This document shows, piece after piece, positions 38,330-58,373 of a stretch of 64,000 nt of DNA; position 1 is the stretch's first letter, and every line of letters begins with the position of its first letter. The position numbers and the translations under genes were made by a program. The stretch is from Lophium mytilinum (taxonomy: Eukaryota): the NCBI GenBank assembly GCA_010093605.1, contig MU004193.1, positions 186,001 through 250,000 of the forward strand, read 5' to 3'. A model generated the notes under the pieces. That model ran no database searches. It saw only the letters and a list, made by a program, of their open reading frames with translations, and was not told the DNA's origin.

Positions 38330-40130
38330 TCAAGTCCGCTTCCTCCGCATCTGAATCTTTGTGTCATGGTTAGGAACCATCTGCTCCTCTGCCATCACAT
38401 TCGCTGGTCTACCTTTCTGCCCCGCCACATACTTGAAGTCATAGGTCATCAGCAAGTGTACCATAATCATTTTGACTTCATGTGATGCAAAAAATCGCCC
38501 TGGGCAAGCATGTCGCCCGTACCCAAAAGCCATATTCTCCAGGTTTGCTGCCGCCCATTGCGTACGACCAACAGCCGAAGGGTCGTTTACCACTGCAGCG
38601 CGGACTTTCTCATGGCGATAGCCGTCGAATACTTCGGGGTCAGGATAGAGGTCTGGGTCCATGGCGCTGGCTTGAGAAGGGAAGCCGACTTGCGTGCCTG
38701 CCGGTATGGTGAAGCCGTCTGAGAGAGTCCAGCCTTTATGAACGATACGCTGAAAGGTGACTATCCCAAATCAGTTACTCGGCCCATTTCAACAATACAC
38801 GTATCTTACCAACGAGCAGGGGATTAAAACGAGAGCTCTCTTTCATGAATGAGTCAAGCTTTTGCAGCTTCCCGAGCGCACGTTTATCTAGTACTTTGTG
38901 CTGCGCAAGGACCTCCTCCATTTCGGCCCGAAGCGAAGGTATGTACTCCGGATAGTCGCACAGATCGTACACCAGCTGAACTGGAGTAGCTGCACTGGTA
39001 TGAGTCGTTGCAAAGCTGAGCTTAAGTAGGATGTCTGCCATATAAATAAAATCCTGTTCCTCGCCCTTCGCATCATCAGCCATCCATTGAAGGAAATCAT
39101 TGGCTGCATCCCGTTTCTCTCTTCGGGATTCGAGTATTGGTACCACTGCATTACGAGTGACTTCGTAGTGCCGAGGGATGCGACGTGCTTCCGAGAGCAT
39201 TGGCCCAAAGATAGGTTTGAGGATATCAGGGTATGCTTTGATCTTCTGCGAGCCGGTGAAGCCATCTGTGGCAAAGTCAAGAGTGGCTTGAAGCCACCCT
39301 CCGTGGCTGGCGAGAGCTTTACCACCGAGCATGCGGCTTGCCGCACGAGTAGTGATCCAATGGAGCTTTGGGCCAATTCGGACTTCCGTCCAGTCTAAAC
39401 CAATTAGCTTCAGTCGATGTGACATGGAGGGTTAGAAGGCAGTACTTTCGGTAACCGGGATTTCGTCGTTGAAAGCATTTACGACTTCATCGTTGACTGG
39501 CTGTAACACGGTTTCTGGTCAAGTCAGCTTCGACTTTCATGCTTTCCCCTTTGTGAGAAATTCTCGAAATACCCATATACTGATTCAGTTGCAGTCTCGC
39601 CACTCGGGGGTGCAGAGTTGCTCTGCTACCCATCGTAGTGTACTTCCCTTCGAACATCTACCATACAATTAGCATTTGCTCGTTCGCGATGCCTGCTACC
39701 TACTCTGAAGAAAGTTCCCACAAAGTCAACCTCATCAACCGCCGCAGTCTTAAGTTCCTCGACATATTTCGGGGGGAGCATGAGAAGCTCGCCGAGGGGA
39801 CTCGGTACATAAAATGGTTTTCCCTTATACTTCAGCCAGTCAGCGTTATTTGAACGGCCCACGACTCGTGCATGTCATCGATACCTTCCGGTAGCCTTCT
39901 AGCAGCATCTTTTGGGCCTCCTGGCGGAATCTTTGTCTCGCATTCTTGATGCTTTCTCCCGGAGCTACCGCCGCGATGGGGACCGAGGGATTCTTCAGCA
40001 CTCGTCCCTGGAACCCGAATCTCAACAGTGGGATTGCTATCAAGAGAAGGATCAGCCATGTCGAATACTTCGTGAACGGTACGACCCAAAAATCCAGGTT
40101 GCCAGGGGACTGTATGTCGACAATTGCCAT
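38330..40130 (-). CDS. Cytochrome P450, terpenoid-oxidase type (CYP503/CYP68/CYP512-like), multi-exon
   Basis: TM anchor, MLLEGYRK, LMLPPKYVEELK, NDFLQWM, LSFATTHTS, LDSFMKESSR, PEVFDGYR, FGYGRHACPGRFFA. Confidence 0.9.
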
Positions 40131-40574
40131 CTTGTGTCAATTTGAAAGCTGCAGTGCACGTGGATGGCTAGTTGCTGGTCTAAGTATGTAGGCTCCTACG
40201 CCTTGGAAACCCCTTAGATTCCCGGACGGTTCCGGGATTTCGTACGTCCACTCGATTAAGGGTCTGTAGGCAGTAGGCAGCGGCTCGTTTCTTACTGCCT
40301 AGCAAGTCTAATACCACCGCGTTGATCAAAATATGCTGCGGAAGAGTCGGGTAGACTAGAGCTTGCCATTGGTATTGCATCCGTTACACGACATTGTCAG
40401 CCTTCGGGACTTGCTTGGAAGGGCAATTTCCGCAAGATCTTACTGTCACTAGTGCATTCACAGTCGAAAAGAGAACAACACAAGTTCTCTCAAATCATCA
40501 CTCGTTAGTATTGTCTGGAGAAAACTGCTCTTCGTTGATATTCCAGCGAGAATCGACGCTGCGTAGTAGCACTC

Positions 40575-42463
40575 ATGACCTCAAATCTCATCTCGCAGAT
40601 CTATTTTCGATGGAAGTCAGAGGTTCAACCACTTCTAACGTCGGCCAACCTATTGGAAGTAGCTGCTGGTGTCCTCGTTCTAGTAAGCTATGGCAGGAGG
40701 ACTCAATGCACGCCACACTAAATTCCACGCGCAGTCCCTGTTATTTGCCAGTATACGAGGAGTCAAGAACGCCTACTTTCATCCCCTTTCGATATTCCCC
40801 GGACCAAAGTATGCGGCCGTCAGTAACGTGAGTAAAGTGAAGTTTCTCAAAGTTAAAAACCCACTACACCATTTGCCCCCGCAGTCGCTCACAATAGGCC
40901 ACAGTTTTGGTACTGTTGGCGCTTCCTTGGTGGAAGGCAGCCCTACCATATCCTTTCGCTGCACAAAAGATACGGTCAGTATACTACGAATCAGACTTGA
41001 AAGCGATTTGCGTGATTCATGACATTCGTTTCAGGTCCCGTAGTTCGCATCGCGCCGAACGAACTATCTTTCAACACGGCACAGTCGTACCGTGATATCT
41101 ACGATTTTCGGCCTGGGAAGCGATGTTTCGTCAAGTCAGATTTCTACGAGGGAGGTACATTCGCGGACCAGTGTGGGTCTATTGTCTCCGAGCGCGATCC
41201 CGAGAAGCATGGGCAGATGCGGCGGTACCTTTCGCATGCCTTTTCGCAACGAAGCCTACTCGAGCAGGAATCGCTGGTCGCCAGGGTGATTAATGATTTC
41301 ATGGATCAACTAGAAAAGCAGGCAGCAACGGGGCAAGAGGTCGATTTGACAAAATGGTTCAATATGATGACATTTGATATCATTGGGGACTTGGCTTTTG
41401 GGGAGACCTTTCATGGTATTGAGTCCGGTGAGTCTCCTTATCGCGCCGGCAGAGACGGTATCAGCTGACAATAAAATCAAAGGGGAGATCCATCCCTGGA
41501 TCGCTCGTATCACCGGTGCTATGACGCAAGGCGCCCTCGCAGATACTTTCAAACGATTCCCCGCCGTCGCCAGAGTTGTAACGACGCTGATGTCGGGCGC
41601 GGTGAAAAAGCTCGTTTTAGACTGCAAGCTCAACGAACAACTTTCCCTCGACCTTGTAAAAAAGCGTATGGCGAAGAAGTCGGACCGCAAAGACTTTCTC
41701 ACGCGCATCTTGGAGCATCGTAATGAGCACGGTATTTCCGACGTGCAGATCGCGGCGCACTGCGCGGACTTTGTAACAGCAGGGAGCGAGACTACAGCAA
41801 CGGCATTGTCGTGTGTTACATATTATCTGCTGAAAAGTCCCGAGATTGAGAAGAAGATGAGGGAGGAGATTCGAGGTGCATTCCATTCCTACGAGGATAT
41901 CAACGCTGCATCGACGACGCCTTTGACATACCTGAACGCCGTGTGTCTTGAGGGCCTCCGGATATATCCACCACTCCCAATTGCCCTACCACGAGTTGTA
42001 CCTGAGGATGGGAGTACTGTCGATGGTCACTTCGTGCCCGCAGGAGTACGTTTTCTCCCTAGTCAACGATCGACCATCAAATAATCCAACAATCCTAGGT
42101 TACAGTATCTACGAGCCCAGTCGCAGCGTCCCTAGACCCAGCGAACTTCTCAAACCCGTTGAGTTTCAAGCCAGAACGATGGCTCGATGAAAACAAAAGT
42201 GATGTTCTAGACGCAAGCCAGCCTTTCTCAACAGGACCGCGTGGGTGTCTTGGTCGAAGGTAGGGTATCGTGTTCCTTGCTTCTGGATGTTCTAACGAAT
42301 GGCTAGTCTCGGTTGGATGGAGTTGAGAACGACACTTGCGAAGCTGTATTACAAATTTGACCTTGAGGCACTCAACCCCGATTTAGACTGGCAAGGCCGA
42401 TCGAAGATGCATACGCTGTGGCAGAAGCCGTCGCTGCCTGTGCGTATTAGGAAGAGAGAGTAG
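40575..42463 (+). CDS. Cytochrome P450, CYP65/Tri11-like, ~7 exons
   Basis: MTSNLISQ..; YFHPLSIFPGP, GPVVRIAPNELSF, TFDIIGDLAFGE, AGSETT, EGLRIYPP, FKPERW, FSTGPRGCLGR; stop at 42461-42463. Confidence 0.9.
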
Positions 42464-43059
42464 TGTCGCAAGCTTAGATATCGATGATGCTCTTGCTGAC
42501 TTTCTACTTAGAGGCTATCAGAAATTCGAGAGGGATGTCGGACATGGTCCAGGAGCTCCCCTGCTCTCGAAAAGGGTGGGTTTAGATGAAGGACGAAACT
42601 AAGCTACGCAATCTATACATCATTCCGAGTTGGATCATGTGGTCGTCGGTGCTCTTGTAGTCAGTGCTCTTTGAATCTATCTAGCTATTTGCGGGATGGC
42701 TGTGCAATGACTAGTCTGTGCAAACTATGTTGTCGCTGCATAAAGCACTTTACAACGTCTTCAGAGATAATAACAAGCTCTCACTATGGGCGCTGGGGAA
42801 GTTTGAACGTACTATAGCATGAAGGACTAAGCAGTCAGTACCACCTAGATACATGATCGATCCCCGAAGTAGCAATTCCCGAGCCAAAGCACACTGCAGG
42901 CCATGCTTACACTCATAGGTCAAGGTGCGCCATAGGCAATCCATATCCATCTCGAAAGTATCCCTCCTCAGAAAGGTTGAAATTGAAGGCCAAACTCGAT
43001 CTCACAGACTGTCTTCGACCTCGTTACCTGCCATTTCCCCAAATAACCTCAAATCTGAG

Positions 43060-44098
43060 ATGTCTTCACTTCACATCGACGAGACATCCATTCCGAATCT
43101 CACTGGAAAAGTAGCCTTGATTACCGGTTAGCTGTCTCTACTGCTCCTTGGTATGCGGATGAAGGTGATTGACTAACAGCAATGCAGGTGGTGCCTCAGG
43201 CATAGGCTTCGCAGCTGCTTCCATCCTGAACGCCCACGGCGCGACAGTCCATATCTTAGACAGAAATCCTCCATCGTCCACTTCCTCTGTGCCCTCCATC
43301 AGGGGCGCATTGCCTCACGACATGCGCTTCCACGAATGCGACGTCACAGACTGGCAGCGGCTACGAGGCGTCTTTGCGATTGTGGGGCACGTAGATTATG
43401 TGTTCGCCAATGCAGGAGTGTCTGAAACGGAAGAGTTCCTGGCAGACAATTTTGAAGAAGACGGAGGTTCGGAGACGCAAGATGGACGAATACATCATCT
43501 CCGAGAGCCCGGCTACGCAATCATCAACACAAACTTGCGAGCCGTGCTCAACGCGATAAAATTGGCCCACTACGCTATGAAGCGCGATGGCACAGGGGGA
43601 TCAATCGTGATAACGGCGTCTGCCACGGCCTACTCGCCTGAACAGTCACTGCCGGTCTACAGCGCACTTAAGCTCGCCATAGTGGGTCTCGTTCGCTCCC
43701 TCCGCCACAATTTATCCCAGGACAACATCACTATCAACGCTGTCGCGCCTGCTGTCACTGAGACCGCCCTTGTATCTCCGCAATTTTTAGGGCCGATCAA
43801 GGCGGCAGGCTTGCCCACAAGTACGGCACGGCATGTCGGGCTGGCATTGGTGTACTCCGCAGTTGCGCGTGAGGCGCGGAAAGTTGAGGTTTATGGGAAG
43901 GAGCCAAGCAGCCATATCACAAGGGAGGGTCCATGGAATGGTAGAGTAATTTTCACCTTGGGGGATTCCTACACGGAGTTGGAGGAGCCACTTGCGGATC
44001 TCCGGCCGCAGTGGATGGGCGAAGAAAACACCAGATTGACGAGGATGCAGCAATTTGCGACAGATTCCAGATCTATAGATTTCACCAAGTACGATTAA
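43060..44098 (+). CDS. Short-chain dehydrogenase/reductase, 2 exons
   Basis: GKVALITG|GASGIG, CDVT, VFANAGV, catalytic YSALK, INAVAP. Confidence 0.9.
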
Positions 44099-44218
44099 CG
44101 AGCTATGCGGAAAAGAAAAATAGAAATCCAGCACCCAACACCTAATCTATCCTCTTGCAGCCCACAAAACCCACAGATGGTACAAATCACATAACATAAT
44201 CTCTCAAAACCTTCACAC

Positions 44219-45866
44219 TCACTTCCCCAACTTGAATCCACCAGGCATCAAGTCCTGGAACACACCATCCGGGTCGTATTTCTTCCTGATTTGCTTCATC
44301 TTTTGCAAACTCTTGCCTTTCCCATAAAGCGGGAAAGGCTCTTCTCCGGCAGCAGCATCATTCAGATAGATAAATGGATAGTACAGACCCACAGCCTTAG
44401 CCTTGTCTTGAAGTTCCTGGAGAACATTTTTCGCCCAGCGTGCGACTTTGTCGTCATCGGCAGCTTTGGACCATCGTGTATACAAATTCAATACTAAAGG
44501 GGGATTAGTGGTAGCTTCATAACGCTAACACGAATGGAAGGGATCATTACCAATAATGCTACCATCAGCGGGATCGAGGTCAATAGCATCCCCCCCGGCT
44601 TTCTTGGCCGCTTCAAACCAGCCCTTCGAGAGTGGCTGCATGTTGAATGCTATCTGAGCGCCGGGAACCTTTGCTAAGCTTTTCTGGACTTCGGGTACGA
44701 CGGTAGTGTTGATCAGTCTAACCGTTTCTGCGGAAGCCTTGAAACTCGTGCAGTGAAAGGCATTGCTAACAATGTTTAGTGCTTGACGTCTCAGATGTCT
44801 CGCATGGGAAAGGTAAATCTTACCGATAATTGCCACCCTGGCCAGATGCAGCGCCTTCTGCAACGAAGTCCGCAAAAGCACGTTCCTTTACAGTGCTCGC
44901 CACTGCTCCTTCAGAGAAATTTCGAAGCGATCTACCGTTCTCCGCGTCGAATCCAAGAACGATAGCAGTCCGGTTCCCAGATACCGGATCAACGTAGTAG
45001 ATGGGGCTAAGGGCGAGCTTGCCATTGTCTATGCCGCCTCCAGGTGACACCCAAGACTCAGTCGCCACCAGAGCATCCTCAACCGTAGAGGTGCCGTATT
45101 CGAATGTTCCAGCTGAAACTTTGCCTCCAGAATGCGTCTGGACGTCGAAGCGAGTGACGATACCGAAGTTACTGCCGCCGCCCTTGAGAGCCCAGAACAA
45201 ATCCGAGTTTGAAGAAGCATTAACATTCACAATCTTGCCGTTACCATTGACCAACTCATAGTTAATTACGTTGTTGGCTGCCCACCCATACTGGCCGCCG
45301 AAATAGCTTATCCCGCCCCCGAGGAGGAGTCCCGAGACACCTACAGGTGCGTAGCGGCCGCCGACAATGACACGGTTGTACGGCTGGATCCAGTTGTATA
45401 CCTCCAGCCACGAGCGGCCAGGTGTGAGGCTCGCAACTTTGAGGTCGGAGGAAATGCTCAGGCTGTTGAGCTTCGTGAGAGCGATTAGTACGCCGTCGTT
45501 TATTGAGGCTGCGCCTTTGACTGTCATATGGCCATGGCCCCGAACAGCGAACTGCGTCTTGGACTGCTTAAGGATCGGGATAGCTGCTGCGACATCCTTT
45601 GAATTTCGTGGGGTAAAGACACAGGTCGGGTGCAAGACCTCCTCTTGGGAGTAGTAGCCTGTGGGAGCTCGTTAGCACTGGTAAGTCATTGTTATAAGGG
45701 GAAAGCGCTATGTACTTGTAGTTTCTGTTTCGTATAGAGAAGAATTGGGGTAGGATATCAGTTGGGGAAATTTGGATTCCAGGCGTTCGCAGCCGTTGTC
45801 TTGATCGTGAGCCAACGAAGGAGTGACAGATAGGAGGAAAAGAAAAAGGGTTGAAAGGCCAATCAT
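44219..45866 (-). CDS. Secreted FAD-linked oxidoreductase (VAO/BBE-type), multi-exon
   Basis: Signal peptide MIGLSTLFLFLLSVTPSLA; FAVRGHGH, VGVSGLLLGGG, DLFWALKGGGSNFGIVT, YLNDA, KYDPDGVF. Confidence 0.9.
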
Positions 45867-47159
45867 TGTTTTAGCGATGGGAAGTTTACGTCATGGAAAT
45901 CAATGCCTAGGTTGAAGAAAGGACTGAAATCTGGTCAAAAGGAGCAAGATATGGAGAAGGAAAAGCTCGTAGAGAGAGCATGATCATATTTTCTGCCTTT
46001 GAAGGAGTGTTATATACTCAATTCTAGGAGAACAAAGAGGAACTCAAAAGGTGGCTGACGGGGAGGCCGACACAGGCTGAGTGAATAGGACCGAATGTAG
46101 AGAAGCCAAAGCCATGAAGGCTTCGTAGGATCGCCAGGATACGTACGATGTCGCGGTCCAGAGCCATACAAAGGATGAAAAGGGGGCGGAATCATGTCCG
46201 TGAGTGCTTTGTCTCTTACGGATATAGAAAGGGGCTGAAACTCGAGAGCATGATACTCAGCCTCTTCTTACAGCCGATTGCCATTCACCGGAGCGGCAGT
46301 GCTGGAGTCATACGTGGATAGTACCAACGGATGATCAATGCTGTCGCAAATTGAGTATACATGAATCGACATAGTGAAGGTATATGCCAGTTTTCGTCTC
46401 AAAAAGCTTCCGCCAGGACTGATCTCTTTTGCGAGTGCTAGTTGCCGTTGTCAAAGGATTAGGCAGGAGATTTCAATTCTCGAAAGTGCCTGCCTTTCAC
46501 TGCAATCAACACTGCTCTCATCCTTCAGGCTGTGGCGGCAGCCACACGCCGAGTGCTGAACGCCACTCGGGCAGCATTAGACGCTAGATAACATATACCA
46601 CGGATCGCGTGGTGGAATTAATGATAAGATGATAGAGTTTGAGGCCGAATAGTAAGCTTGGGGCCAGAATTTTGGGCTTCGGATTCCTCTGATTGGAGGA
46701 CAGATTATTTGGAACACTAGAAGGCGGCTCGAGTGACCAATGACTAGTTTACAAAATAGACTCATCGGCAAAGAAACGCGCTCATCCTTCCAATTCGTTG
46801 TATTCGATGTATGATATTCCTATAGACGCAGAGGGCCAAGAACCGCTAGGTCACGGACTGTCTCTAAACACCTACAGCCCCGGAGCGGCGTCAACAGTCA
46901 GACAACCACAGGACATTGGGCCCCGAGTACAGTCTCGGGTATTACTAGAAGAGGTAATACTAAGCGTGTTGACTTGTGAAGCTACTGGCGCCACCGGAGA
47001 TGAGATTTCTGACCGTGGTACAGTGCTTAGTGAGACAGTCCACGGAGCCCAGTCTGCCAGCTGACTTCCCTTTTTGTATTTATTATTGACTACAGGCGAA
47101 TGACGGGATGTTTGAAACAAAGGTCAACCAGCTACTTCGTATTCGTTTCTTCACACGAA

Positions 47160-48343
47160 ATGACTGCCGTACAGGACCCTAGCATTTTGAACACGGACAC
47201 GGCGACGGACCTTTACCCGAGTCTCTTCACGTCGGTATGCCATCCTAACGTCAACGAGGCTGTGCGTGATGTCGACGGCTGGTTCCTCGATAACTGGAAG
47301 TTCCCGGACCAGAAATCGCGGAAGAAGTTCGTCGCCGCTGGCTTCTCGCGTGTAACGTGTTTGTATTTTCCAAAGGCGCTCGAATCACGCATACGATCGG
47401 CATGCAAGCTGCTTACCATCCTGTTCTTGGTTGATGGTGAGTGAAAACATCCTTGAAGCGGTTTGAAAGAATGAACATTCACATCAGCAGATCAACTCGA
47501 GTATATGTCGCTCCAAGACGGCAAGGACTACAATGAGAGTTTGATGCCGTTTTGCACAGGTAACGTCCAGCCAAACCAAGACGACCCTGTGCAGTGGATG
47601 ATGTATGAAATCTGGGAGGAGATGCGGGCGCTGGATAGGCAGCTCGCTGAGGACGTGGTGCAACCTGTCTTTCTCTTCATGCGTGCCCAGACGTCCAAAG
47701 AGAGGTTGTCGATCACGAGGCTGCATCAGTATTTCCAGTACCGGCAAGGAGATGTAGGTCAGGCGTAAGTCCCCACGCTGTCGAGATGGCTGAAGTTGAG
47801 CTAATGACCCATAGATTATTGGCCGCCCTTATGCGCTTCTCATATGACTTGCACCTCTCGCGAATGGAGGTCGACTTCGTGGCAGACATTGAGAAGAACT
47901 GTGGAAAGCACATCTCGCTCGTGAACGACATCTACAGCTACGAGAAAGAGAAGCTCATCTCCGAGCAAGAAACATCGGAAGGGGCAATACTTTGCAATGC
48001 CGTTCAGATCTTGGCTGACCAAGTGCAAGTGTCGATCGAAGTTAGCAAGAATCTCCTTTGGGTCATGGTAAGAGAGTATGAGTTTGTTCACAGGGATCTT
48101 GTCGACGGGAAGAACGCTCTCTTCCCTGGCTTGGTTCTGAAAGGCGATTTGCGGCACTATGTGGATGGGCTGCAGTATCAGATGAGCGGGAATGAGCTAT
48201 GGAGCAAGACGACGAATCGATACCGGCAGGCGGCAGCGGATTTGAAAACGCAGAAGAAAGGTACCGACATCCCTGGCTCCAATGGGACGAGGCCCTCGGA
48301 GGCTGAGGTGCATAGGCTAGAAAATGGCGATTCACTAATTTAA
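47160..48343 (+). CDS. ari1: Aristolochene synthase-like sesquiterpene cyclase (exons 47160-47436, 47491-47764, 47815-48343)
   Basis: Spliced DDQLE and NDIYSYEKE metal-binding motifs, YRQGDVG, terminal WSKTTNRY; KKFVAAGFSRVTCLYFPKAL, VFLFMRAQT, LLAALMRFS, YQMSGNELWS match recalled Aspergillus terreus/Penicillium roqueforti aristolochene synthases. Splicing keeps frame. Confidence 0.9.
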
Positions 48344-49123
48344 GTGAAGTTGATCAATATCTCAAGACTAGAAATGCAGTAGATACGTATCCTCATCATT
48401 GCAGTATGGCATACACGATCTACGCTCAGTTTCTGGCTTCGCTGCTTTCTATATCACTGTGTATTCTTATCTCTTCCTCATAGCTTGGAATATGCTATGG
48501 TCTAGTTAGTATGGTCCTTTGATGGCTTGGGAAGGTGTCAAAGATGGAAGCACGTACTTTAGACTTCGAAATGTTATATGCCAAAGTCCAGGGCTACTTC
48601 TTACCTATTATGCTTCCTCCATGTTAGTCAAGCCTGCAGATGCCATTGCTGAGACAAAGAAACAGGACCCTCTGTGAAAACCGGATGCATGATCATTACC
48701 AGTCCCAACATCCGTCCAGAATTGGATGTGCCCTCGCTTGCACATTGGGAAGGAGTTCAATGTAGTTGAATGGGAAACTAAATCCTGCTTAATAACAGCG
48801 ATGAAGTAAATTAAGCAAAGAGATTGATACTGAACAGGAGACGAGGTATTGAAGCTTCAGACGGATACTAATAAGCTCTCTTCGACGTCGGTCAGATATC
48901 ACGGGCTATTAACTAACACAAGAGGTCTTCGATGCTTTTGAAAGGCGTCACGAGATGTAAACTACCTATCTTGTTAAGAGAGTAAACATTTAAGCTCGTG
49001 AGACCCTGTAGAATTCATGCTAGCTGATCGCTGCCATTGTGCAGCTTTCATTCATCTCCTCATGAAGTCAAACGCCCACACTCCGTTCGAACCCCGGGAA
49101 TGTGCCGGCCAGGATGAACTCCT

Positions 49124-50271
49124 TCAATGGCCGAACTTCTCGCCGACGAGCTTCTCGCTCACAGCCCAGAGCTTGAGCACTTCGTCCTTGTCGGTTGCGT
49201 ACGGAAGCGGTTCGATGATATTGCATTCCTTGAGGAACGCGGGGCTCTTAGCCTTAAGGCTCGGATCAAGGGCAGCCATCAATGCCGTTGCGACAGACTG
49301 TTGCATGGAGACCGGCACAGTCGGAGGGATTTCCTTACCTTCCGCTGCGAACTTCGCCGTTCGCGAGCCAGAGAGCTTGAAACCCTCACCGAGGAACTCT
49401 GGGTCGACGACGCTGTTGGCGAGAAGCTGACTCTCGGTAGCCACTACAAGACTAGTTAGTAATGTAAGTGAATCATCTTCGAAACAAGCTTACTTCCGGG
49501 GTCCGTAACGAAGCTGGAGAATTTGTCGCCGTAGCGAGCAGCGAGCCCATACGTGAAAAGAACGTTAGCGGTCTTAGAACGGCCATACGCAACCCAGGCT
49601 GCATAGTCCTTCCCATCCTAATCAAGGAGTTAATTCCTTCCAATGGGTTCGGAATGGGGTTCACACGGGGTACGTACATTGAAGTTCGGATCCTCGGTAT
49701 TCACTTCTGCAAGCGTGTACGCCATGCTGCTCACGTTGATCACCACCCCATTGACTTTAGCCAGATTGTCGACAAGCAAATTCGTGAGAAGGAAATGCCC
49801 AAGGTGATTCGCAGCAAAGTGAATCTCCACGCCGTCCTTGCTCAGGCCGAATTGCTGCCGCGCCATGACCCCGGCGTTGTTGATGAGTACGTCAATGCCC
49901 TGGACCGCGGCTTTGATTTTCTCCGCTGCAGCGCGCACAGATGTGTTCTCAAGCAGGTCCAATTCGACGAAGGTGAGCTTGACGTTGGGATTGATAGCCT
50001 GAATCTTTTTCATCACGGGCGTGATTTTGGCCTCATTGCGGCCAGCGAGAATGAAGTGAGCGGGCTCTACAGCGGCAAGCGTGGTGAGAAGCTCTGCACC
50101 AATACCTCCATCACTGGGTCCGGTGACGAGAACTGCGATACTGTTAGGGAAACAATAGAGGGAGGAGCGGGCCAAGGCTAGTTTGGTGAACTTACACGTC
50201 TTGCCTTTTGCATTTCCACCGTACTCGGCGATGATATCCTTGCCGGTTGTCTCGATGTTGTGGACGGCCAT
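49124..50271 (-). CDS. Short-chain dehydrogenase/reductase (retinol dehydrogenase/WWOX-like), multi-exon
   Basis: LVTGPSDGGIG, IDVLINNAGVM, HFAANHLGHFLLTNLL, INVSS, spliced YGRSK, KLWAVSEKLVGEKF. Confidence 0.88.
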
Positions 50272-50813
50272 GATGAGGCGATGTGATTGTTGGATTGGGT
50301 GTGAGAGTTGAAGAGGGAATGGGGAGTGGAGCAGAGGTTGATGTGTTCAGGGCAAGATGTAGCCACGGTTTTGAAGAAACGGCAACTCGATCCACCAGCT
50401 TGCAGGTTTGTGAATGCGAAGGTTGTGCAACCCCGGACCAAAATAGAATGAATATCTTGGAGTGTTTTGAAACGGGAGAGAAGGCATAGCTAAGCTGTGG
50501 GAAGGCACGATCGACTGCTCCGCACTTCGTCCGCCGAGCGTTGTTCCGGCTGGGCGGCACCAAAGAAAGACGGTTACACGGTTACAAATGAAATACACAG
50601 GAGCAAGCAAGCACGGCCGTATTAAGTCGTGCAAAGAAGTAAAGTCTGACTCTGACCGTAACTAGCAATATCCGACCACATCTAGCCTCATACCACTTGT
50701 GCCGACGTGCAGCTATCAAGCATCCACAGCCTCACTCTGCAGGCCCACACTTCCACTTCTCACTCAATCAAAAGTCAAAGCGGGCCATAGCACGCTCGAA
50801 TGATCATATCGAT

Positions 50814-52210
50814 TCAGCCAGACAAGCTCAGCTCATGCATCTGCATCTGCACTCTCCTTTCCAGCTGCACTCCCATGGCCATGTGCGACTTCAGTCCTAG
50901 CGACGCGCATCGTTCAGAAAGCTGCCCAAGAAACCCTTTCCATTTTGCAAGTTGCATAGTTGCGAGGCTCGTGAAAACACACATTTCTTCTTCAGAAGTA
51001 ACGTCGTATTCGCCGAGAGACATCGATGGACCTGCTCCGTGCGTTGGGGAGACGTCTTGGGCATTGTACATCGGGTAGGGCGCTGTTTTCGAGACTGGCA
51101 CTTGCTGAAAGCTTTCCGGATAGCTCAGCCCAGTCAAGTGGCCATGCAAAGATTTCCCCTCTTGCAATATCTTTGCTAGCACTACGTACGAGTCCACCGC
51201 TTTCTGGCATATCTGGATCAACAGCATAAGAAATCTAGGTATTTTGCTGCACTCAGAGCATCCGAGTAGCGTAGCGCAGGTTAACAGACATCGTCGTTTG
51301 AATCCTAGTCTCTGGCTTGTGGATTGTGTTCCTGTATCATGCCCATCCACCGCTAGCTCTTCAAGAAGAGTTAGCGCGGTTGAAACACAGCTGCAAGAGA
51401 GTAGGACTCCATTTAAATTCGATGCCGATGCTGATGGTTTGAGCAGGTTCATTGATTCCAAAGCCGTGAGCTGCTCTGGTTGAGCACGCGAGTGCAGCTG
51501 TGGATAGAAGAAACAAGGCTTTGGAGGCATTGGACTTGGCAGCGGCGTTAGATTGTAAGAGACATCCATGAAAAATGGTTGCTCTGAATGGTTGAGCTGA
51601 TCCGGCAACCTATCGTGAAAGGAAAACAAGTAGTCCATGTCATTCATTCCAATCAACGTCCCCTCATTGTCTTCTAGTGCCGCATTTACGTGGAAGCCCT
51701 CAAGGAAGGATGACGACGAGACATCGATGTCCGCAGGCGTTGTAGCAGGCCCTATCTGCCCAAAGTCTGGGATGATGCCTCGCAGGTCCAGCTCCATGGG
51801 GGTATCTGAGCCATGTTGTCGCGGTCTTGATATAGTGGAGTTGGGCGATACCGGCCCTTCTTGTGGATTCGTAGACTGTGTGGAGGCTGGCGGGGATGGG
51901 AGCGCATTGATGATGTTATTTGGCACAGACTCGGAGCTCTTTGAAGAATTCGCTCTCCGTCGTACGGTAGGTGCTGTATATTCGCATTCTGCCTGCTGAA
52001 GGCGGCAGCGCCGACATTCCGGAAGCTCCCCGGAGCACCTGAGCTACATTTGAACTCCGTTGGTCAAATCGTCATATGAAGAAGTCTTTGTAAACCGAGC
52101 GGAAGACGAACCTTCTTGGAGCGACAGAAATTACATGCGGAGAAGTTGGGCGTTGAGCCAGCCCTTTCCACTGATAGAGAATCATGGCGGCTGCGAAAGG
52201 TGGCGAACAT
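50814..52210 (-). CDS. Zn(II)2Cys6 pathway-specific (AflR-type) transcription factor, 2 exons
   Basis: MFATFRS...SACNFCRSKK|LRCSGELPECRRCRLQQAEC across an intron at ~52046-52111; C-terminal CSCVSTAL..LEEL, LLGCSEC, SLGEYDV..EEE seen in cluster regulators. Confidence 0.85.
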
Positions 52211-52962
52211 AATGGGTTCTTCGAATGCTCTCGAATATCGTCTGTAAGTTTGACATTATCGAGATGATTTGAGAACCCCCACTTAGCGTCCGTTTCACAC
52301 ACTACCGCAGTGCCTCTCTCAAGTTCTATTTAGTGCTTAGTTCCGGACACTGCCGAATCGTACAGAGTACGCACTCGGGGTCAAGGCTTAGTAGGTGTCT
52401 CAAGTCAGATAACGGCCCTGTAGCCTAATTGGAAAGGACTCCATATCTTCCTGCTGCGGATATTTAATTTAGATCGCCGGCAACAGCACTCCGATTAGGG
52501 CGTTCAAGGGCTGTTTTCTAGGATTCCCGCTGCTTAAACAAATAGATGTGCTTTGAGCTGAATTATTATTCCGAAACGGTTTTTCCATGTACATCATGTT
52601 GAGAATGGTGATGTATGATCCCTGAAAAAAGGTGTGGTAAGGTACCAAACGGATGAACTAGCCTCCTAGGGCTTACGATTAGACAAGATTCAGCCCTACT
52701 CTTTCCCTGGTCTTTAGTCTTACCAAATCATGCCCCACACACAAGTGGTCTGATCAGAAGCCCTACCGCCGAACTTGCTACGCAGAGTAGCGTCACGGGT
52801 ACGACGCTACTAGGCATAGCGCAATTTGAAGAAGGATACTGATAAAGGATCGCCAGATCTGCTAGAACGTGCACCTCGCTAATCCCTCTGATCGCTGTTT
52901 TTTCCAATTGTAGAAGGCTGTAATGAAGAAAGAATGACTGCGTGCCACATACTTAGGCCCTT

Positions 52963-53033
52963 TCGGATCCGATGCTGCTATGCGGCAACGTAACTCCCTG
53001 TCGGATCCGATGCTGCTGTGTGGCAACGTAACT
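52963..53033. repeat. 38-bp tandem duplication, each copy beginning with palindrome TCGGATCCGA
   Basis: TCGGATCCGATGCTGCTRTGYGGCAACGTAACT at 52963 and 53001. Confidence 0.85.
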
Positions 53034-53647
53034 GCGTCTGATTGCGATTTAGGCTCCGGACTTACCATATCCTGTTCCACTGCTTAATCTCGTACTACTT
53101 TCTCTGGCTCACAATGTGTACTTTTGCCATTGTCTAGCATCTGGGATACAACGTGGCTCGTCCTTCACCCTATGAATTATCAAATGCTTTACTGAGGCCT
53201 AGAGGCTGAGCAGACTGGACGACTACTGGATGTTGAGCTGTACGGAAGCGAGGAGTAGGTCATTCTATTAGTCTTGCTGCTTGTTCGCCCACGGCTCTGT
53301 CGTCCAGCTTTCGTCCGGAGGTGTTACAAGCGCGGCTCTCTCCAGAGTCCACGTGGTCTGTAGTTTCATAGGCCTCGCTACTGTTTTGGCCTCAAAGAAG
53401 CTCTCAGGCATGTGACTTTTCCGGCATACCGGGTCGATGTTCTAGCTCCGACTCCACTCCTCTAAGCTCGTAGGGCGAAGTCAGCCTTCAACTACCTGTA
53501 GTATACTGTGCGACCTCTCTACCTTGAGACGACTCTAAGCTCAATCCAGTATATCCCGAATCTCCGTGCCAGCGATAGATGAGTGAGATCGAAAAGAAAC
53601 AACCTAGCGACATCTCATCACCGCCTTTGAAACATCCAGCCTTCAAA

Positions 53648-55646
53648 ATGACGGCGCAGGCAGACTTGGAGAGTGTCATCACATTCTGGAATGCGCTGAC
53701 GACGAATGAATTATGCAGCATCCTTCTGCTCTTCGTAGCTACCTTAGTGAGTCGAACACAATTGATGCCATCAACATTGATGTTTACGGGCCCTCTAGCT
53801 TTTCTTTTACACTAGTATCAATGTGATCTATAACTTATACTTCCACCCTCTACGCCAATTCCCGGGCCCGTTTCTCGCCCGATCGTCACTGGTACGCCTC
53901 AATCTCCATGTCCTTCAGCAATTTCATAGTGTACTATCCTTATAAACCAGGTATGGCGAATTTTCCACTCAACTGGCGGTCGGTTCCATCGCGCAATCGA
54001 CGAGCAGCACATACGCTACGGTAAACATCCAGCTCCCGGCTTCCCCATGAGCCCACGATCTGCCTCTCATCACATGCATCAGGTCCCGTCTTCCGTGTAT
54101 CACCCAACGAACTCTCCTTCGCTTCCGTCAACTCCTGGAAAGCCATCTACGGCCACCAGCCAGCCGGCAAGCCCGTTCCCCCGAAAGCAGAATTCTACGA
54201 CATATACGGCTCCGCGTATAAGACCGGGTGCATCGGTAGCGAGAGGAATCCGCAGCGACATAGCCGCATGAAGAAAAACCTCACAGCCGCATTTTCCACT
54301 CGAGCATTAACGGAGCAAGAAGGCATCATCTCCGGATGCGTAGACCGGTTCGTTGAGAAGATCGGGACTACGAAAGGGGCGCGAAGCGAAGGACTGAATA
54401 TGGTGAAATGGTTTGAGATGATTGCTTTTGATATTCTTGGGCAGATGGCTTTTGGGGAATCGTTCCACGCGGTGGATTCGGGTATGCGCGCAACGACTCA
54501 TCGTTTGCTAGTTCTTTGCTTACTGCGAGACTGTCGAATGCAGGTAAACCACACTTCTGGTCTGAACTCATTGTCAAACATCTGTTCTTCATCACGGTCA
54601 TGGATAATATGCGGCGTTACCCGTTTCTGGTTGCCCTGGGAAAGCGCATATGGCCCTGGGCAACTGTGGCTGTGATGAAGAAGCACTCCGAGTATACTCG
54701 AGCTCAAGTAGCGCGGTGAGTGACGTACAGTTCCCCTCTATGGTCACAAATCATAACGCCAACCAGTCGAATGAACAAAAAGACCACTCGCAAAGACTTC
54801 CTCTCAAGCATCGTCGACAAAGTCGAGTCCGGGGACATAGACACCGAGGAACTCAACGCCCACGCCTCAACACTCGTGTAAGTCCAGTTCAATCCCCTCC
54901 TGTACTCCAGCAGCTCAGATCCCGCGAAAACAGAATCGCTGGCGGCGAAACCGTCGCCACCTTCCTCGCGGCCGTCACATACTACCTCCTGAAAAACCCC
55001 CATGCGTACCAGAAGCTTCAAGACGAAGTCCGCTCAGCCTTCAACTCCTACGACGACATCAACGCCACTTCGGCGCAGAGACTCCCGTACCTGCAAGCAG
55101 TCATCTCAGAGGGCTTGCGCATCTACCCGCCGGGCTCGCAGGGCTTCCCACGCGTCTCGCCTGGACTTGAGGTGGATGGCTTTTGGGTGCCGAAAGGGGT
55201 ATGTTCGCGTCTGACCCAGGATGGTTGTGGTTGTCACTAAGTGCGAGTCTAGGCCGAGATGTATACCAGCGCGTGGACAGTCACCCACGACGCGAAGTAC
55301 TTTCATGATCCCATGAGTTTCAAGCCAGAGCGCTGGATTGATCCGGAATGTACCGATGCGAAGGAGGCTAGTCAGCCGTTCTCGTTGGGGACGCGGGGGT
55401 GTTTGGGGAGGAAGTGAGTAGTTCTTGTAGTTTTGGGTAGGGCAGAGATGGTTATGTTGCGTACTGACAGTTTCATGCAGTTTCGCGTACGCTGAAATCA
55501 ATCTCATACTGGCGAAAATGCACTGGAGGTTTGATCTCGAGATGGTGAATGAGGAGCTGGATTGGGAGGGACAGAGTTATTTATATGTCATGTGGTCTAA
55601 GCCGAGCATGTACGTGCGTCTCTTGCCTCGGGCGAGCAGGAGTTGA
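53648..55646 (+). CDS. Cytochrome P450, CYP65/Tri11-like, ~9 exons
   Basis: YNLYFHPLRQFPGP, GPVFRVSPNELSF, AFDILGQMAFGE, AGGETV, EGLRIYPP, FKPERW, FSLGTRGCLGR; alternative start at 53579. Confidence 0.9.
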
Positions 55647-58373
55647 AGATGGTTTCTCCAATGTCATTGAAGAATGGTCATAGACAGACAGTTTGAGTAG
55701 ATGTGATAGGGGATTAAGCGAGGATGGACCGGCATCACTACATCAGGATGCGTGAACAAGAACGCGAACATCGGAATATAGTGGTCCCTAGATTTGGACC
55801 AAGATTAACTACATCCTGTCATGCGTGGAAGACTACGGTCTTGGCGATATATCGAAGCTGAATACTACGCTGGGTAAGATGAATGGATCTAAGACCACGT
55901 GACATCCAGCTGATCTTCCCATAATCTCCATTCTCCTAGAGTATAAAAGTCCCACTGCCTTCTGCAATCGAACCTTCAGCGGACCAGGGTGGTTTGACTC
56001 GATTTAACTAAGGATGTTCAACGACCACATGTGGCGGCGGAGTTGGGTGCTCGGAAACCTCGTCTTCGCGTACATCATGGGCGCGATCGAAAGGCAAAGA
56101 GGACGCACTTGATGGTATCCGTGGGAGTTGAGTATCCAAACAGATGATGACTGCTCTGATGGGCGGCGCAGAAACGAGTCGAAATGATGACTAGCAGCAT
56201 AGCTTTCCAAAGCTAGATGGAACCATCCCATCCTTAATGACGCTAGCACCTTTGGCTCAAAACCACGGTCTACAGCGCGTAGGTACGACACTCCCAGTCA
56301 TTTTCACGCTTTTCTGGTATTCATCACCAGCAGAAGGTATAAATCTTCCACCGCGCCACTCCACTCCAACATGGACTGAAATATCGGATGATTTTGACGC
56401 CCGACACCGACTCCATGACTGACTGAAGTTCCTGGTTGATCCCACCACACCATTACCGCGAGCTCGCTTCCGAATTTCGATGCCCAACGAAGCAGCCACC
56501 GAAGACTGATCTGAGTGATTTTCCGTCTCTCCAACCCTCTCTGCCCTGAGAAAAAGAATCTCAAGCTCGCGAGCGAGGTTATATACCCACCCTCCCCCAG
56601 ACACCTCGTGATCATCACGTGGTTTACCTCAACCATTCTGCAGAACAATCTAGAGAGTGCCACTATTCAGACTGGCGACAGAGCGCTTAGGCACGTGAGC
56701 TCCACGTGCCACCCCCAATCTTCGTTCTCCGGCGATCATAAAACCCCTCGTCAGACCCGGTCTCTTGAATTCTTCAGGGAGATCTGGAAGGGGGGTGGCG
56801 GAGGATCAAAAGGCGCAGATCTAGCCTGTGATGTGGTGGAGCTGCGGTCATTCAACGCATCTACGGCGCTGGACGCATGGAGTAGTGGCGAGGTGTGCTC
56901 TTTACAAAAAGCCATGACCAGTTCCGCGATGGGAGGTTTGCAAAATGCCAACACGGCCGGCGCCATGGAGGTGTGGTTGAGTGGAGAACTGATGCAGACG
57001 GCGAGGGTATGGGGTGTGGAGGACTACCTTCCAGGAGACGGTGATGAGTAGCAACACTCGCTAGTTTTTACGATACTCAGCAGTGGAAAAGGCGATCAAG
57101 ATGGTTTCATTCCTTTTAGAGAGTTCGGTGGTAGCAGCATACGAACCTGAGACGGGATCGGCACAGTGATTGCTCCAAGGCGAGCTAAGCGACGGGTGTA
57201 ACGCGGGAATAAGTTTCTGCGCGCACGGGAATAAGCGCTTGCGGGGAAGCACTAGCATTCACTAGAACACATAGGCGACGACCGAATTTGGAATTTCTCG
57301 GCGACGATTCAGTATGCCGTTTGCCTATGACACTAAATGGATCGCACTTTGGATGATGATCACCATCTCTACGCTGTCGAACGCCGGAATCCCCAGCGAC
57401 CGCCATGTGATTTTGCCAGGGCCAGTTCTAACGCCACACATCCTCCATGAGGCGTTATCGTGAAGACGTTGAACACACAGCCGGTCATCGTCGAATGTGA
57501 ATTGATGGTTTCGAACCCGGAAGTCCGCACACCATAAACCAGTGTCCTAGAGCCTTTTGATCCTCCACCGCCTCCCTGTCCTGCAGAGCTCAAAGTTCGA
57601 AGGCGTGGAGAGATTTATACATCCCTCCCAGCTTACCAAGACGTGTCCACGTGATGAAAGGAGATCCACGTGGTATCTGCATCCCACCGACTTCGCAAGG
57701 CTGTTCTGCTGTCTTGTAGAGGCATCCGTTGATAGTTATCTATAGCAGTAGCGGTATCCTCACTCGTCAGATCACAAACATAACCCATCGACGTTTGAGA
57801 ACCTTTTTCGATAGATTTTCAGAATAAAACTACACTCACTTCTCTCCTCGGCGCCATTTTCAGTGTTCACCACATAGCCACGAGCATATTCCCCCCTAAT
57901 CCCTAAAACACCAAAACACCAGCCCCCAAAGCCCAGTCCAACCTCCGCTAGCAACGAAGCCCGGTAAACACCCCAATACACTACACGCTTCCAGCCTCAT
58001 CAGCCGTACCACATCAGCATACCACAAACCCAAATAGCATGAACAAGTAAAGTAAAACAATAAACGAAAGAGAAGTGTAAGACAATTCCGGGTATCTGTT
58101 ACGGCCCGCAGTGTATGCGAGTCCTGTGTTCGTCATATAACGCCACATCGCCGTTTTCAAGCCTCCAGCCTCTGGGAAGAAGCAAATACGATGAACCAAA
58201 GCGGGGGGAAGAATAGGGACGTCCAAAAGGAAGGAGTAAATCAATATTGTAGTATCGTGGTCCGTTGAGTTCGTTGAGCGCAGAAAGATCATATTGATCT
58301 CTTTTTGGGGGGGGCCAAAAGTGGCGGTAAAGGTGTCGGAGGGTACCGGGGGTGTTCGAGAATGGGAACGGTT

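What the first reader, a model, noticed from the sequence alone, without database searches (positions are those of the whole stretch)
38330..55646. Eight-gene eremophilane-type sesquiterpenoid biosynthetic gene cluster
Seen: eight contiguous genes (P450, P450, SDR, FAD oxidoreductase, terpene cyclase, SDR, Zn2Cys6 TF, P450), several as divergent pairs, with no unrelated gene between them. Established: aristolochene is the precursor of fungal eremophilanes such as PR toxin, eremofortins, phomenone and sporogen-AO1. Inference: this is a self-regulated pathway with six redox enzymes making a highly oxidised eremophilane, possibly undescribed in this organism.
Basis: partly seen in the sequence, partly recalled or inferred. 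Interest (0 to 1): 0.85.

Follow-up and report, generated by a model that had tools for sequence, protein, structure and literature searches.

The report
Fungal eremophilane sesquiterpenoid gene cluster
This is an intact eight-gene fungal cluster built around an aristolochene-synthase-like cyclase, of a kind already characterised in several other fungi, so it is a new member of a known family and not a new kind of pathway.

Summary
Window 38330-55646 carries eight intact, intron-containing genes with no unrelated gene between them: P450a, P450b, SDR1, an FAD-linked (BBE/VAO-type) oxidase, a terpene cyclase, SDR2, a Zn2Cys6/AflR-type regulator and P450c. They form three divergent pairs. The cyclase is about 56% identical to Aspergillus terreus aristolochene synthase, collinear over its whole length, with both metal-binding motifs kept. 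P450a and P450b exons are 100% identical to proteins named as Lophium mytilinum in the protein database. Spliced RNA-like contigs confirm all 7 introns I predicted in P450b and SDR1. The eremophilane reading is supported by homology, but the cluster is not a novel type. Its gene content matches the hypoxylan A (hr), jan and peribysin (pma) clusters, all built on the aristolochene synthase + common P450 + common SDR core that gives 7-epi-neopetasone. A 2026 survey already classifies 371 such clusters. The markers of the PR-toxin, PKS-hybrid and alpha-KG groups are absent. Which P450 does which oxidation, and the end product, could not be settled here. No paper in the searched library links this species to terpenoids. 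Verdict: new member of a known kind, modest interest.

The parts
38330..40130 (-). P450a, 513 aa, 6 exons (40130-39885, 39829-39704, 39657-39573, 39514-39446, 39394-38810, 38760-38330). A tailoring P450 of a different family from P450b and P450c. Tentatively the Emp13-type ring-B (C6/C7) oxidase.
   Evidence: Pfam p450 on two exons, E 2.8e-20 and 2.6e-11. My model is 100% identical over all 513 residues to P0122, 'putative cytochrome P450 [Lophium mytilinum]'. Next best is 56% to the C-terminal part of the fused P. sporulosa protein P0123. It is 19-23% identical to P450b and P450c.
40575..42463 (+). P450b, 514 aa, 7 exons (40575-40682, 40735-40827, 40905-40974, 41035-41427, 41483-42045, 42099-42259, 42307-42463). 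Probably the 'common' C8-hydroxylase (Emp9 type).
   Evidence: Pfam p450. All 6 predicted introns match GT..AG joints in a spliced contig of run X1. 100% identical over 478 aa to P0147 [Lophium mytilinum], which differs only in the first exon. 68% identical over 490 aa to P. macrospinosa P0148. In my tree, four fused P450-SDR models (P0244, P0207, P0146, P0218) fall in the broader group that also holds P450b, and their SDR parts match SDR1.
43060..44098 (+). SDR1, 325 aa, 2 exons (43060-43126, 43188-44098). Probably the 'common' SDR (Emp4 type) that oxidises the C8 alcohol to the enone.
   Evidence: Pfam adh_short, E 1.8e-30. Its intron is confirmed by an RNA contig joint. 51-55% identical to the SDR portion of five fused models (P0207, P0244, P0123, P0218, P0146) that also carry a P450b-like part. 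Published clusters have the common P450 and SDR as neighbours: HrL7/HrL8 and XhL7/XhL6 (PMC10686045).
44219..45866 (-). FAD-linked oxidase (BBE/VAO type), 491 aa, 4 exons (45866-45716, 45658-44824, 44765-44551, 44493-44219), with a hydrophobic signal-peptide-like N-terminus. Probably the Emp3-type oxidase (HrL4, JanF, Prt3) that takes the side-chain allylic alcohol to the aldehyde or acid.
   Evidence: Pfam FAD_binding_4, E 2.6e-24. 54.8% identical over 493 aa, collinear, to P. macrospinosa P0002. 42% identical over the queried 277-aa exon to the P. chrysogenum protein that UniRef names an FAD-dependent monooxygenase. His94 and Tyr153 sit 5 residues before JanF's published His99 and Tyr158, but position 268 is Ser where JanF has Asn273 (PMC12335561).
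47160..48343 (+). Class I sesquiterpene cyclase, an aristolochene synthase homologue (Emp2 type), 359 aa, 3 exons (47160-47436, 47491-47764, 47815-48343).
   Evidence: The three exons hit A. terreus aristolochene synthase chains at E 6e-31, 2.7e-25 and 3e-37. They cover chain residues 14-90, 93-181 and 183-316 of 2e4o in order, with about 169 of 303 aligned positions identical by my count. The LFLVDDQLE and VNDIYSYEKE motifs are present. P. roqueforti synthase 1dgp also hits.
49124..50271 (-). SDR2, 324 aa, 4 exons (50271-50196, 50132-49678, 49617-49494, 49443-49124). A second reductase/dehydrogenase whose role is not assigned. Comparable to the 'additional' SDRs of the hr, PR-toxin and pma clusters.
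   Evidence: Pfam adh_short, E 4.1e-22. 48.6% identical over 282 aa to the N-terminal part of the fused P. sporulosa protein P0123, which continues into P450b-, SDR1- and P450a-like parts. That alignment supports the first intron. No similarity to SDR1 at E 1e-3.
50814..52210 (-). Zn2Cys6 transcription factor with an AflR-type domain, 442 aa, 2 exons (52210-52112, 52043-50814). Presumed pathway regulator.
   Evidence: Pfam AflR, E 1.8e-5 (25.2 bits, cut-off 24), and a partial Zn_clus. Splicing restores a complete CX2CX6CX6CX2CX6C motif starting at residue 26.
53579..55646 (+). P450c, 534 aa (511 aa if translation starts at 53648), 9 exons (53579-53746, 53799-53891, 53951-54020, 54083-54481, 54544-54715, 54767-54877, 54934-55198, 55253-55413, 55481-55646). 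A paralogue of P450b. Tentatively the side-chain (C12/C13) hydroxylase (Emp11 type).
   Evidence: Pfam p450. 41% identical to P450b over 513 aa. 58% identical over 494 aa to Sphaerulina musiva P0277 and 53% to A. ustus P0294, whose accession is consecutive with the A. ustus FAD-oxidase homologue P0041. 60% identical to one part of the fused Monosporascus protein P0146, which also holds P450b-like and SDR1-like parts.

Best explanation
This is a biosynthetic gene cluster for an oxidised eremophilane (aristolochene-derived) sesquiterpenoid, of the 7-epi-neopetasone (ENPS) type. The proposed route is inferred from characterised homologous clusters and nothing in it was assayed here. The cyclase turns farnesyl diphosphate into aristolochene. 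P450b hydroxylates C8 and the adjacent SDR1 oxidises the alcohol to the 8-oxo enone. The two remaining P450s decorate ring B (P450a, C6/C7 desaturation or epoxidation) and the isopropenyl side chain (P450c, C12/C13 hydroxylation). The FAD-linked oxidase carries the allylic alcohol on to the aldehyde or acid. SDR2 does a further reduction or oxidation. The Zn2Cys6/AflR-type factor switches the cluster on. The expected product class is phomenone, hypoxylan or peribysin-like. The exact compound is unknown. Shown here: gene content, intactness, homology and synteny. Inferred: every chemical step and the regulation.
For: All eight families were found and all eight spliced ORFs are intact. The cyclase is about 56% identical and fully collinear with A. 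terreus aristolochene synthase, with both metal-binding motifs kept. P450a's model equals the deposited 513-aa protein. Spliced contigs of run X1 confirm 7 of 7 predicted introns in P450b and SDR1. Synteny elsewhere: the P. sporulosa fused protein KAK7178809 covers SDR2-, P450b-, SDR1- and P450a-like parts, with the FAD homologue KAK7178807 two accessions away. The P. macrospinosa FAD (PVI03626) and P450b-like (PVI03628) proteins are two accessions apart. The A. ustus P450c-like and FAD proteins are consecutive. Literature: all studied eremophilane clusters share a common P450 and a common SDR that install the 8-oxo group. The hr cluster adds a P450 plus FAD dehydrogenase for side-chain oxidation and an extra SDR (PMC10686045, passages). 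The jan cluster has AS, 3 P450s, an SDR, an FAD oxidase and a TF, and was reconstituted (PMC12335561, passages and section 7). Emp2/9/4 give ENPS in nearly all of the 371 clusters (PMC13736955, Introduction and Results).
Against: No product or enzyme activity was measured. No sequence of any characterised Emp/Jan/Hr/Pma tailoring enzyme was available, so the P450 assignments rest on family distribution and neighbourhood only. In my tree the P450b-like proteins split into two large subclades, and the only PR-toxin-derived label ('orf11', P0198) lies in the subclade without P450b, so Emp9 versus Emp11 is not resolved. P450c's Colletotrichum relatives are clustered in the database with terpene synthases that do not match this cyclase, so that clade is not specific to eremophilanes. 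JanF's Asn273 has no counterpart at the same offset. No enriched AflR-type site (18 found, 20.8 expected) and no shared promoter motif were found.
Confidence: 0.8

Rival explanations
1. The cyclase makes a different 1,10-cyclised sesquiterpene (for example valencene or an epi-eremophilene type), so the cluster product is not a true aristolochene-derived eremophilane.
For: Identity to the solved aristolochene synthases is only about 56%. PMC13736955 notes valencene-derived fungal metabolites made by similar oxidation logic. Product cannot be read from sequence.
Against: Both metal-binding motifs and long active-site stretches (for example FSRVTCLYFPKAL, VNDIYSYEKE, YQMSGNELWS) are identical to the A. 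terreus enzyme in the printed alignments. The accompanying P450b/SDR1 pair is of the kind that recurs next to aristolochene synthases (PMC10686045).
Confidence: 0.08
2. Only part of the eight-gene block is one pathway (cyclase, P450b, SDR1 and perhaps the FAD oxidase). The other genes are neighbours with unrelated or lost roles, or the cluster is silent or decaying.
For: P450c-type enzymes occur next to unrelated terpene synthases elsewhere. A strongly represented spliced plus-strand transcript runs antisense across the 3' half of P450a. No common promoter motif was found.
Against: All eight ORFs are intact. SDR2-, P450b-, SDR1-, P450a- and FAD-type genes are neighbours again in P. sporulosa. 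P450c-type parts are fused to P450b- and SDR1-type parts in a Monosporascus gene model. Characterised hr and jan clusters use the same enzyme set (PMC10686045, PMC12335561).
Confidence: 0.1

Closest known systems
Hypoxylan A cluster (hrTc-hrL8) of Hypoxylon rickii (Sun et al. 2023, PMC10686045, passages read)
   Same: Aristolochene synthase, a common P450 and a common SDR that are neighbours (HrL7/HrL8), two further P450s, an FAD-dependent dehydrogenase (HrL4) that works with a P450 (HrL3) on the side chain, an additional SDR (HrL5), and a transcription factor. This is the same enzyme set as the window.
   Different: HrL1 is an aromatase-type P450. PMC13736955 says most members of that group share over 75% identity with HrL1. 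None of the 24 P450a hits comes from Hypoxylon, and the best non-self hit is 56%. No transporter lies inside the window cluster. No hr sequence could be compared directly.
[quoted passage not shown]
   Same: Eight genes in about 16.5 kb, against 17.3 kb here. AS, three P450s (C8, C13 and ring B), an SDR, an FAD-dependent oxidase and a zinc-finger pathway regulator. The window's oxidase has His and Tyr at JanF's His99 and Tyr158 positions, shifted by 5.
   Different: jan has one SDR plus a protein of unknown function, whereas the window has two SDRs. Asn273 is not matched at the same offset. The jan sequences have no accession in the paper and its main supplement could not be read.
pma (peribysin) cluster of Periconia macrospinosa, and the B-type class in the 371-cluster survey (PMC13736955, Introduction and Results read)
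   Same: The best non-self database relatives of the FAD oxidase (55%) and of P450b (68%) are P. macrospinosa proteins two accessions apart. pma has Emp2/9/4 plus Emp11, Emp13 and extra reductases.
   Different: I could not verify that those two P. macrospinosa proteins lie in pma, because the supplement is unreadable. No Periconia protein appeared among the P450a hits.
PR-toxin cluster of Penicillium roqueforti and P. chrysogenum (PMC10144355, passages and Table 3 read)
   Same: Aristolochene synthase, two SDRs (prx1, prx4), an oxidase (prx3), a regulator (ORF10) and P450s, with similar protein sizes.
   Different: The window has no acetyltransferase (ORF8) and no ORF7-type gene. It has three P450s, not four.
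Sporogen-AO1 / deoxyphomenone clusters: isa of Isaria felina (PMC13647387, first of four parts and passages read) and DPH of Hansfordia and Aspergillus section Flavi (PMC11980549, passages read)
   Same: Cyclase + SDR + three P450s, with C8 hydroxylation followed by SDR oxidation as the first steps.
   Different: Those clusters have no FAD oxidase and no second SDR. isa adds an NRPS and an ABC transporter, and DPH adds an MFS transporter.

Membership tests
Fungal ENPS-type eremophilane cluster (Emp2/Emp9/Emp4 core; PMC13736955) | Aristolochene synthase (Emp2) with an Asp-rich motif and an NSE motif | tested here: met
   About 56% identity, collinear with the A. terreus enzyme. LFLVDDQLE and VNDIYSYEKE are present. 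The product was not assayed.
Fungal ENPS-type eremophilane cluster (Emp2/Emp9/Emp4 core; PMC13736955) | The common P450 (Emp9, C8 hydroxylase) in the cluster | tested here: inconclusive
   P450b has 55-72% relatives across many fungi, several fused to SDR1-like parts. No characterised Emp9 sequence was available, and the tree shows two subclades.
Fungal ENPS-type eremophilane cluster (Emp2/Emp9/Emp4 core; PMC13736955) | The common SDR (Emp4) in the cluster | tested here: inconclusive
   SDR1 lies directly downstream of P450b. It is 51-55% identical to the SDR parts of fused P450-SDR models. No characterised Emp4 sequence was compared.
Fungal ENPS-type eremophilane cluster (Emp2/Emp9/Emp4 core; PMC13736955) | Produces aristolochene and then 7-epi-neopetasone | not testable with these tools
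   Needs heterologous expression and GC-MS/NMR.
Group B / jan-pma type (Emp13 with Emp11 or Emp15, plus or minus Emp3) | Emp13-type P450 (C6,7 desaturation/epoxidation) | tested here: inconclusive
   P450a's 24 hits come from Colletotrichum, Neofusicoccum, Xylaria, Paraphaeosphaeria and Aspergillus, and none from Penicillium. This fits where the survey places Emp13 but is circumstantial.
Group B / jan-pma type (Emp13 with Emp11 or Emp15, plus or minus Emp3) | FAD oxidase of the JanF/HrL4/Prt3 type with a covalent-FAD histidine | tested here: met
   FAD_binding_4 domain. The RGHGH motif has His94, and Tyr153 aligns to JanF Tyr158 by a constant offset, but Asn273 is not matched. The P. chrysogenum protein that UniRef names an FAD-dependent monooxygenase is 42% identical over the queried 277-aa exon.
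Group A (PR-toxin type) | Emp8 acetyltransferase and Emp7, together with Emp6 | tested here: not met
   No transferase-family or ORF7-like hit in the 32 cluster ORFs, the 107 other ORFs of 110 aa or more, or the 53 flank ORFs.
Group C / BC (eremoxylarin type) | Polyketide synthase (Emp12) and an acyltransferase in the cluster | tested here: not met
   No PKS domain anywhere in the 64-kb window among the scanned ORFs.
Group X (Colletotrichum type) | Group-specific alpha-ketoglutarate dioxygenase | tested here: not met
   No 2OG-Fe(II) oxygenase hit among the scanned ORFs.
Group D (hypoxylan type) | Emp13D with high identity to HrL1 (12 of 14 members over 75%) | tested here: inconclusive
   The best non-self hit of P450a is 56%, and none of its 24 hits is from Hypoxylaceae. 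The HrL1 sequence itself was not available.

The most novel reading that the evidence does not exclude
The cluster makes an eremophilane that has not been described. The combination of an Emp13-like P450 only 56% identical to its nearest relative, an FAD oxidase that would create a reactive side-chain enal (as JanF does), and a second SDR could give a new oxidation or reduction pattern, or spontaneous amine or thiol adducts. This would be in a Dothideomycete lineage (Mytilinidiales) with no reported terpenoid chemistry. In addition, P450a may be controlled by the abundant spliced antisense transcript that overlaps it.
Probability: 0.3. Interest if true: 0.4.

Novelty: new member of a known kind. 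Interest (0 to 1): 0.25.

Why it matters
Eremophilanes include mycotoxins, phytotoxins and sporulation signals. Their diversity comes from swapping a few tailoring oxidases on one core. This cluster adds a moderately divergent example (40-70% identity to its nearest relatives) from a little-studied wood-inhabiting Dothideomycete. It could supply new tailoring enzymes for mix-and-match biosynthesis or a new congener. It does not open a new question, because the pathway logic, the enzyme families and even this gene combination are already in print.

Tried and rejected
1. Whole-genome search for paralogues: no genome is held for this window.
2. Earlier scan notes: none for this genome.
3. RNA evidence:
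   - The look-up of sequencing runs listed one holder, X1, guessed to be RNA, and no holder on record as RNA.
   - When laid, its contigs gave no cover over 44304-54263 (FAD oxidase, cyclase, SDR2, TF, start of P450c) and depth 1.08 in 54264-54927. I draw no conclusion on expression from these gaps.
4. AflR-type site TCGN5CGA: 18 in the window against 20.8 expected. Three of these fall in the five cluster promoters (4243 bp, about 1.2 expected), which is not convincing.
5. De novo shared 7- and 8-mers and gapped CGG/CCG/TCG motifs in the five promoters gave nothing beyond what multiple testing would give.
6. ESM Atlas on SDR2 returned only generic bacterial SDR clusters.
7. Linking P450c to the Colletotrichum CseA/CseB (Emp2/Emp11) pair: rejected. 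The terpene synthases clustered with the Colletotrichum P450c-like proteins do not match this cyclase even at E 1e-3.
8. Linking P450c to the section Flavi DPH cluster: rejected. The A. arachidicola P450c-like protein (P0300) and the P450b-like protein of the same strain lie on different contigs.
9. Supplements:
   - The PMC13736955 supplement with the BGC list, Emp table and pma map could not be read.
   - The main PMC12335561 supplement with the Jan gene table and sequences could not be read.
   - So I could not check whether this very cluster is among the 371, nor compare with Jan sequences.
10. My first automatic splice finder missed real introns and was replaced by junction-by-junction modelling.


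Full report
**What is there.** The window is fungal DNA with short GT..AG introns and about 50-52% G+C across the region. I scanned 32 stop-to-stop ORFs between 38330 and 55646 against Pfam. Eleven had hits and 21 had none:
- Cytochrome P450 in six ORFs, belonging to three genes.
- adh_short in two ORFs.
- FAD_binding_4 in one.
- Terpene_syn_C_2 in one.
- AflR plus Zn_clus in one.

I modelled each gene junction by junction in scripts. All eight give complete reading frames:

| Gene | Strand | Length (aa) |
|---|---|---|
| P450a | - | 513 |
| P450b | + | 514 |
| SDR1 | + | 325 |
| FAD-linked oxidase | - | 491 |
| Terpene cyclase | + | 359 |
| SDR2 | - | 324 |
| Zn2Cys6/AflR factor | - | 442 |
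| P450c | + | 534 |

There are three divergent pairs, and the intergenic ORFs that were scanned match no family.

**Support for the gene models.**
- P450a's model is identical over all 513 residues to a deposited protein.
- P450b matches a deposited protein at 100% over 478 residues and differs only in the first exon.
- A spliced contig of run X1 covers 39595-44085. Its GT..AG joints fall at all six introns I predicted in P450b and at the one in SDR1, so 7 of 7 are confirmed.
- The cyclase exons align end to end with A. terreus aristolochene synthase. They cover chain residues 14-90, 93-181 and 183-316 of 2e4o, leaving only the two junction codons between them.
- The FAD oxidase, P450c, SDR1 and SDR2 models are collinear with full-length or fused homologues.
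- Splicing of the regulator restores a complete CX2CX6CX6CX2CX6C zinc cluster.

**Boundaries.** Upstream there is a TRAPP-like housekeeping gene. It gave the only Pfam hit among 53 flank ORFs, and that hit is below the cut-off. It is well represented in the RNA contigs. Beyond it lie a HET-domain gene and an MFS transporter. Downstream there is about 2.7 kb without a recognisable family and then a bZIP gene. The cluster is therefore the eight genes as stated.

**Organism.** The protein database holds 100%-identical proteins named 'putative cytochrome P450 [Lophium mytilinum]' for exons of P450a and P450b. Their accessions are consecutive and they sit on a 1.8-Mb contig. Of the 22 papers in the library that mention this species, none, by title and abstract start, concerns its terpenoids or this cluster. 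None of the 20 best-ranked papers of a combined search held the species name together with eremophilane, aristolochene or sesquiterpene terms.

**What it is.** The cyclase is a clear aristolochene synthase homologue. By my count from the printed alignments, about 169 of 303 aligned positions are identical to the A. terreus enzyme. The Asp-rich motif (LFLVDDQLE) and the NSE motif (VNDIYSYEKE) are both present. Several long stretches are identical.

The literature gives the pathway logic. All studied fungal eremophilane clusters share a 'common' P450 and a 'common' SDR that install the 8-oxo group. The two are neighbours in the Hypoxylon and Xylaria clusters (PMC10686045, passages). IsaC and IsaB were shown to be the C8 hydroxylase and the dehydrogenase (PMC13647387, abstract and passages). 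Emp2/Emp9/Emp4 give 7-epi-neopetasone in nearly all of the 371 surveyed clusters (PMC13736955, Introduction and Results).

In the window, P450b is followed on the same strand by SDR1. The P450b hit list includes gene models that carry both P450 and SDR domains. Four of them (Penicillium expansum, Arachnomyces and two Monosporascus models) have SDR parts that are 51-55% identical to SDR1. A fifth fused model, from Paraphaeosphaeria, also has an SDR1-like part. I therefore read P450b and SDR1 as the core pair, with moderate confidence.

**Tailoring genes.** The FAD-linked oxidase has a signal-peptide-like N-terminus, judged by eye. Its RGHGH histidine (His94) and Tyr153 lie at a constant 5-residue offset from JanF's published His99 and Tyr158. 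JanF's Asn273 is not matched at that offset. Enzymes of this type oxidise the side-chain allylic alcohol: HrL4 with the P450 HrL3, JanF after JanD, and Prt3.

P450a belongs to a different P450 family, with only 19-23% identity to P450b and P450c. Its 24 database hits come from Paraphaeosphaeria, Colletotrichum, Neofusicoccum, Xylaria, Aspergillus and a few other genera, and none from Penicillium. This resembles the distribution the survey reports for Emp13. It is circumstantial.

P450c is a 41% paralogue of P450b. Three observations bear on it:
- Its relative in A. ustus is adjacent, by accession, to the FAD-oxidase homologue.
- A Monosporascus fused gene model joins P450c-like, P450b-like and SDR1-like parts.
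- Its Colletotrichum relatives are clustered in the database with terpene synthases that do not match this cyclase.

My FastTree of 130 P450b/c-like sequences separates a P450c clade and two large P450b-like subclades. The only protein with a PR-toxin-derived label ('orf11') falls in the subclade without P450b. That tree has no characterised members and I did not evaluate support values, so it cannot assign function. The P450a = Emp13 and P450c = Emp11 assignments are my best guesses, at roughly 60% and 50%.

**Conservation.** In Paraphaeosphaeria sporulosa one mis-fused 1492-aa gene model covers SDR2-like, P450b-like, SDR1-like and P450a-like parts, at 49-62% identity. The FAD-oxidase homologue is two accession numbers away on the same 48.6-kb contig. 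In Periconia macrospinosa, the producer of peribysins, the best relatives of the FAD oxidase (55%) and of P450b (68%) are two accession numbers apart. I could not confirm that this locus is the published pma cluster, because the supplement could not be read.

**Comparison with known clusters.**
- The enzyme set is the same as in the hypoxylan A cluster.
- It nearly matches the eight-gene, 16.5-kb jan cluster, which has one SDR and one unknown protein where the window has two SDRs.
- The PR-toxin markers (acetyltransferase, ORF7), the PKS of the eremoxylarin type and the alpha-KG dioxygenase of the Colletotrichum group are absent from all scanned ORFs.
- The sporogen/deoxyphomenone clusters lack the FAD oxidase and the second SDR.

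I file this as a B/D-like ENPS-type eremophilane cluster. It is a new member of a known kind, not a one-to-one orthologue of any characterised cluster that I could verify.

**Regulation and expression.** The regulator is inferred from its presence only. The AflR consensus TCGN5CGA is not enriched, and no motif is shared by the five promoters beyond chance. Run X1 shows that P450b and SDR1 are transcribed and spliced as modelled. Gaps in contig cover over the other genes are not evidence either way.

**Verdict.** The eremophilane interpretation is well supported by homology and synteny. The chemistry of each tailoring step and the product remain inferred. Novelty is modest because the same pathway architecture has been dissected in at least five fungi and catalogued in 371 clusters.

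Noticed in passing
window 37008-~39600 (+): A strongly represented spliced contig of run X1 (depth about 196) starts in the TRAPP-like gene and continues on the plus strand. It has GT..AG joints at 38222>38269, 38754>38818 and 38936>38988, which is antisense across the 3' half of P450a. The part after about 37970 has no long ORF. It may be a long 3' UTR, an antisense non-coding RNA or an assembly merge.
   Followed up: partly
window 39595-44085: One RNA contig (depth about 31) spans P450b, the 597-bp spacer and SDR1. It also runs unspliced through 39595-40682, which covers the shared P450a|P450b promoter and the first exons of P450a. Contigs cannot show whether this is a single transcript.
   Followed up: no
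window 40575-40735: The deposited P450b protein (493 aa) has a different first exon from my model (514 aa). The RNA joint 40682>40735 fits the donor used in my model.
   Followed up: partly
window 55835-56612: An unspliced RNA contig (depth about 7) lies just downstream of P450c, in a stretch whose ORFs match no Pfam family. This could be an unannotated small gene or a UTR. The jan cluster also ends with a protein of unknown function.
   Followed up: partly
window 20485-22271 (+): A fourth cytochrome P450 gene lies 16 kb upstream of the cluster (three exons with p450 hits). It is separated from the cluster by F-box/ankyrin, DUF6604, hydrolase, MFS, HET and TRAPP-like genes.
   Followed up: no
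window 31165-32840 (-): An MFS transporter gene lies 5.5 kb upstream of the cluster. Several eremophilane clusters include an MFS transporter, but here a HET-domain gene and a TRAPP-like gene lie between it and the cluster.
   Followed up: no
window 6430-8043 (-) and 9419-10192 (-): Two further Zn2Cys6 transcription-factor genes sit close together, next to an MFS gene at 11862-13758.
   Followed up: no
P0014 (A. nidulans AN3274.2) and P0032 (A. aurantiobrunneus): Deposited gene models of about 1000 aa fuse an FAD-oxidase homologue to a P450a-like P450 (about 41% identity to P450a). This suggests the two genes are neighbours in Aspergillus section Nidulantes.
   Followed up: no
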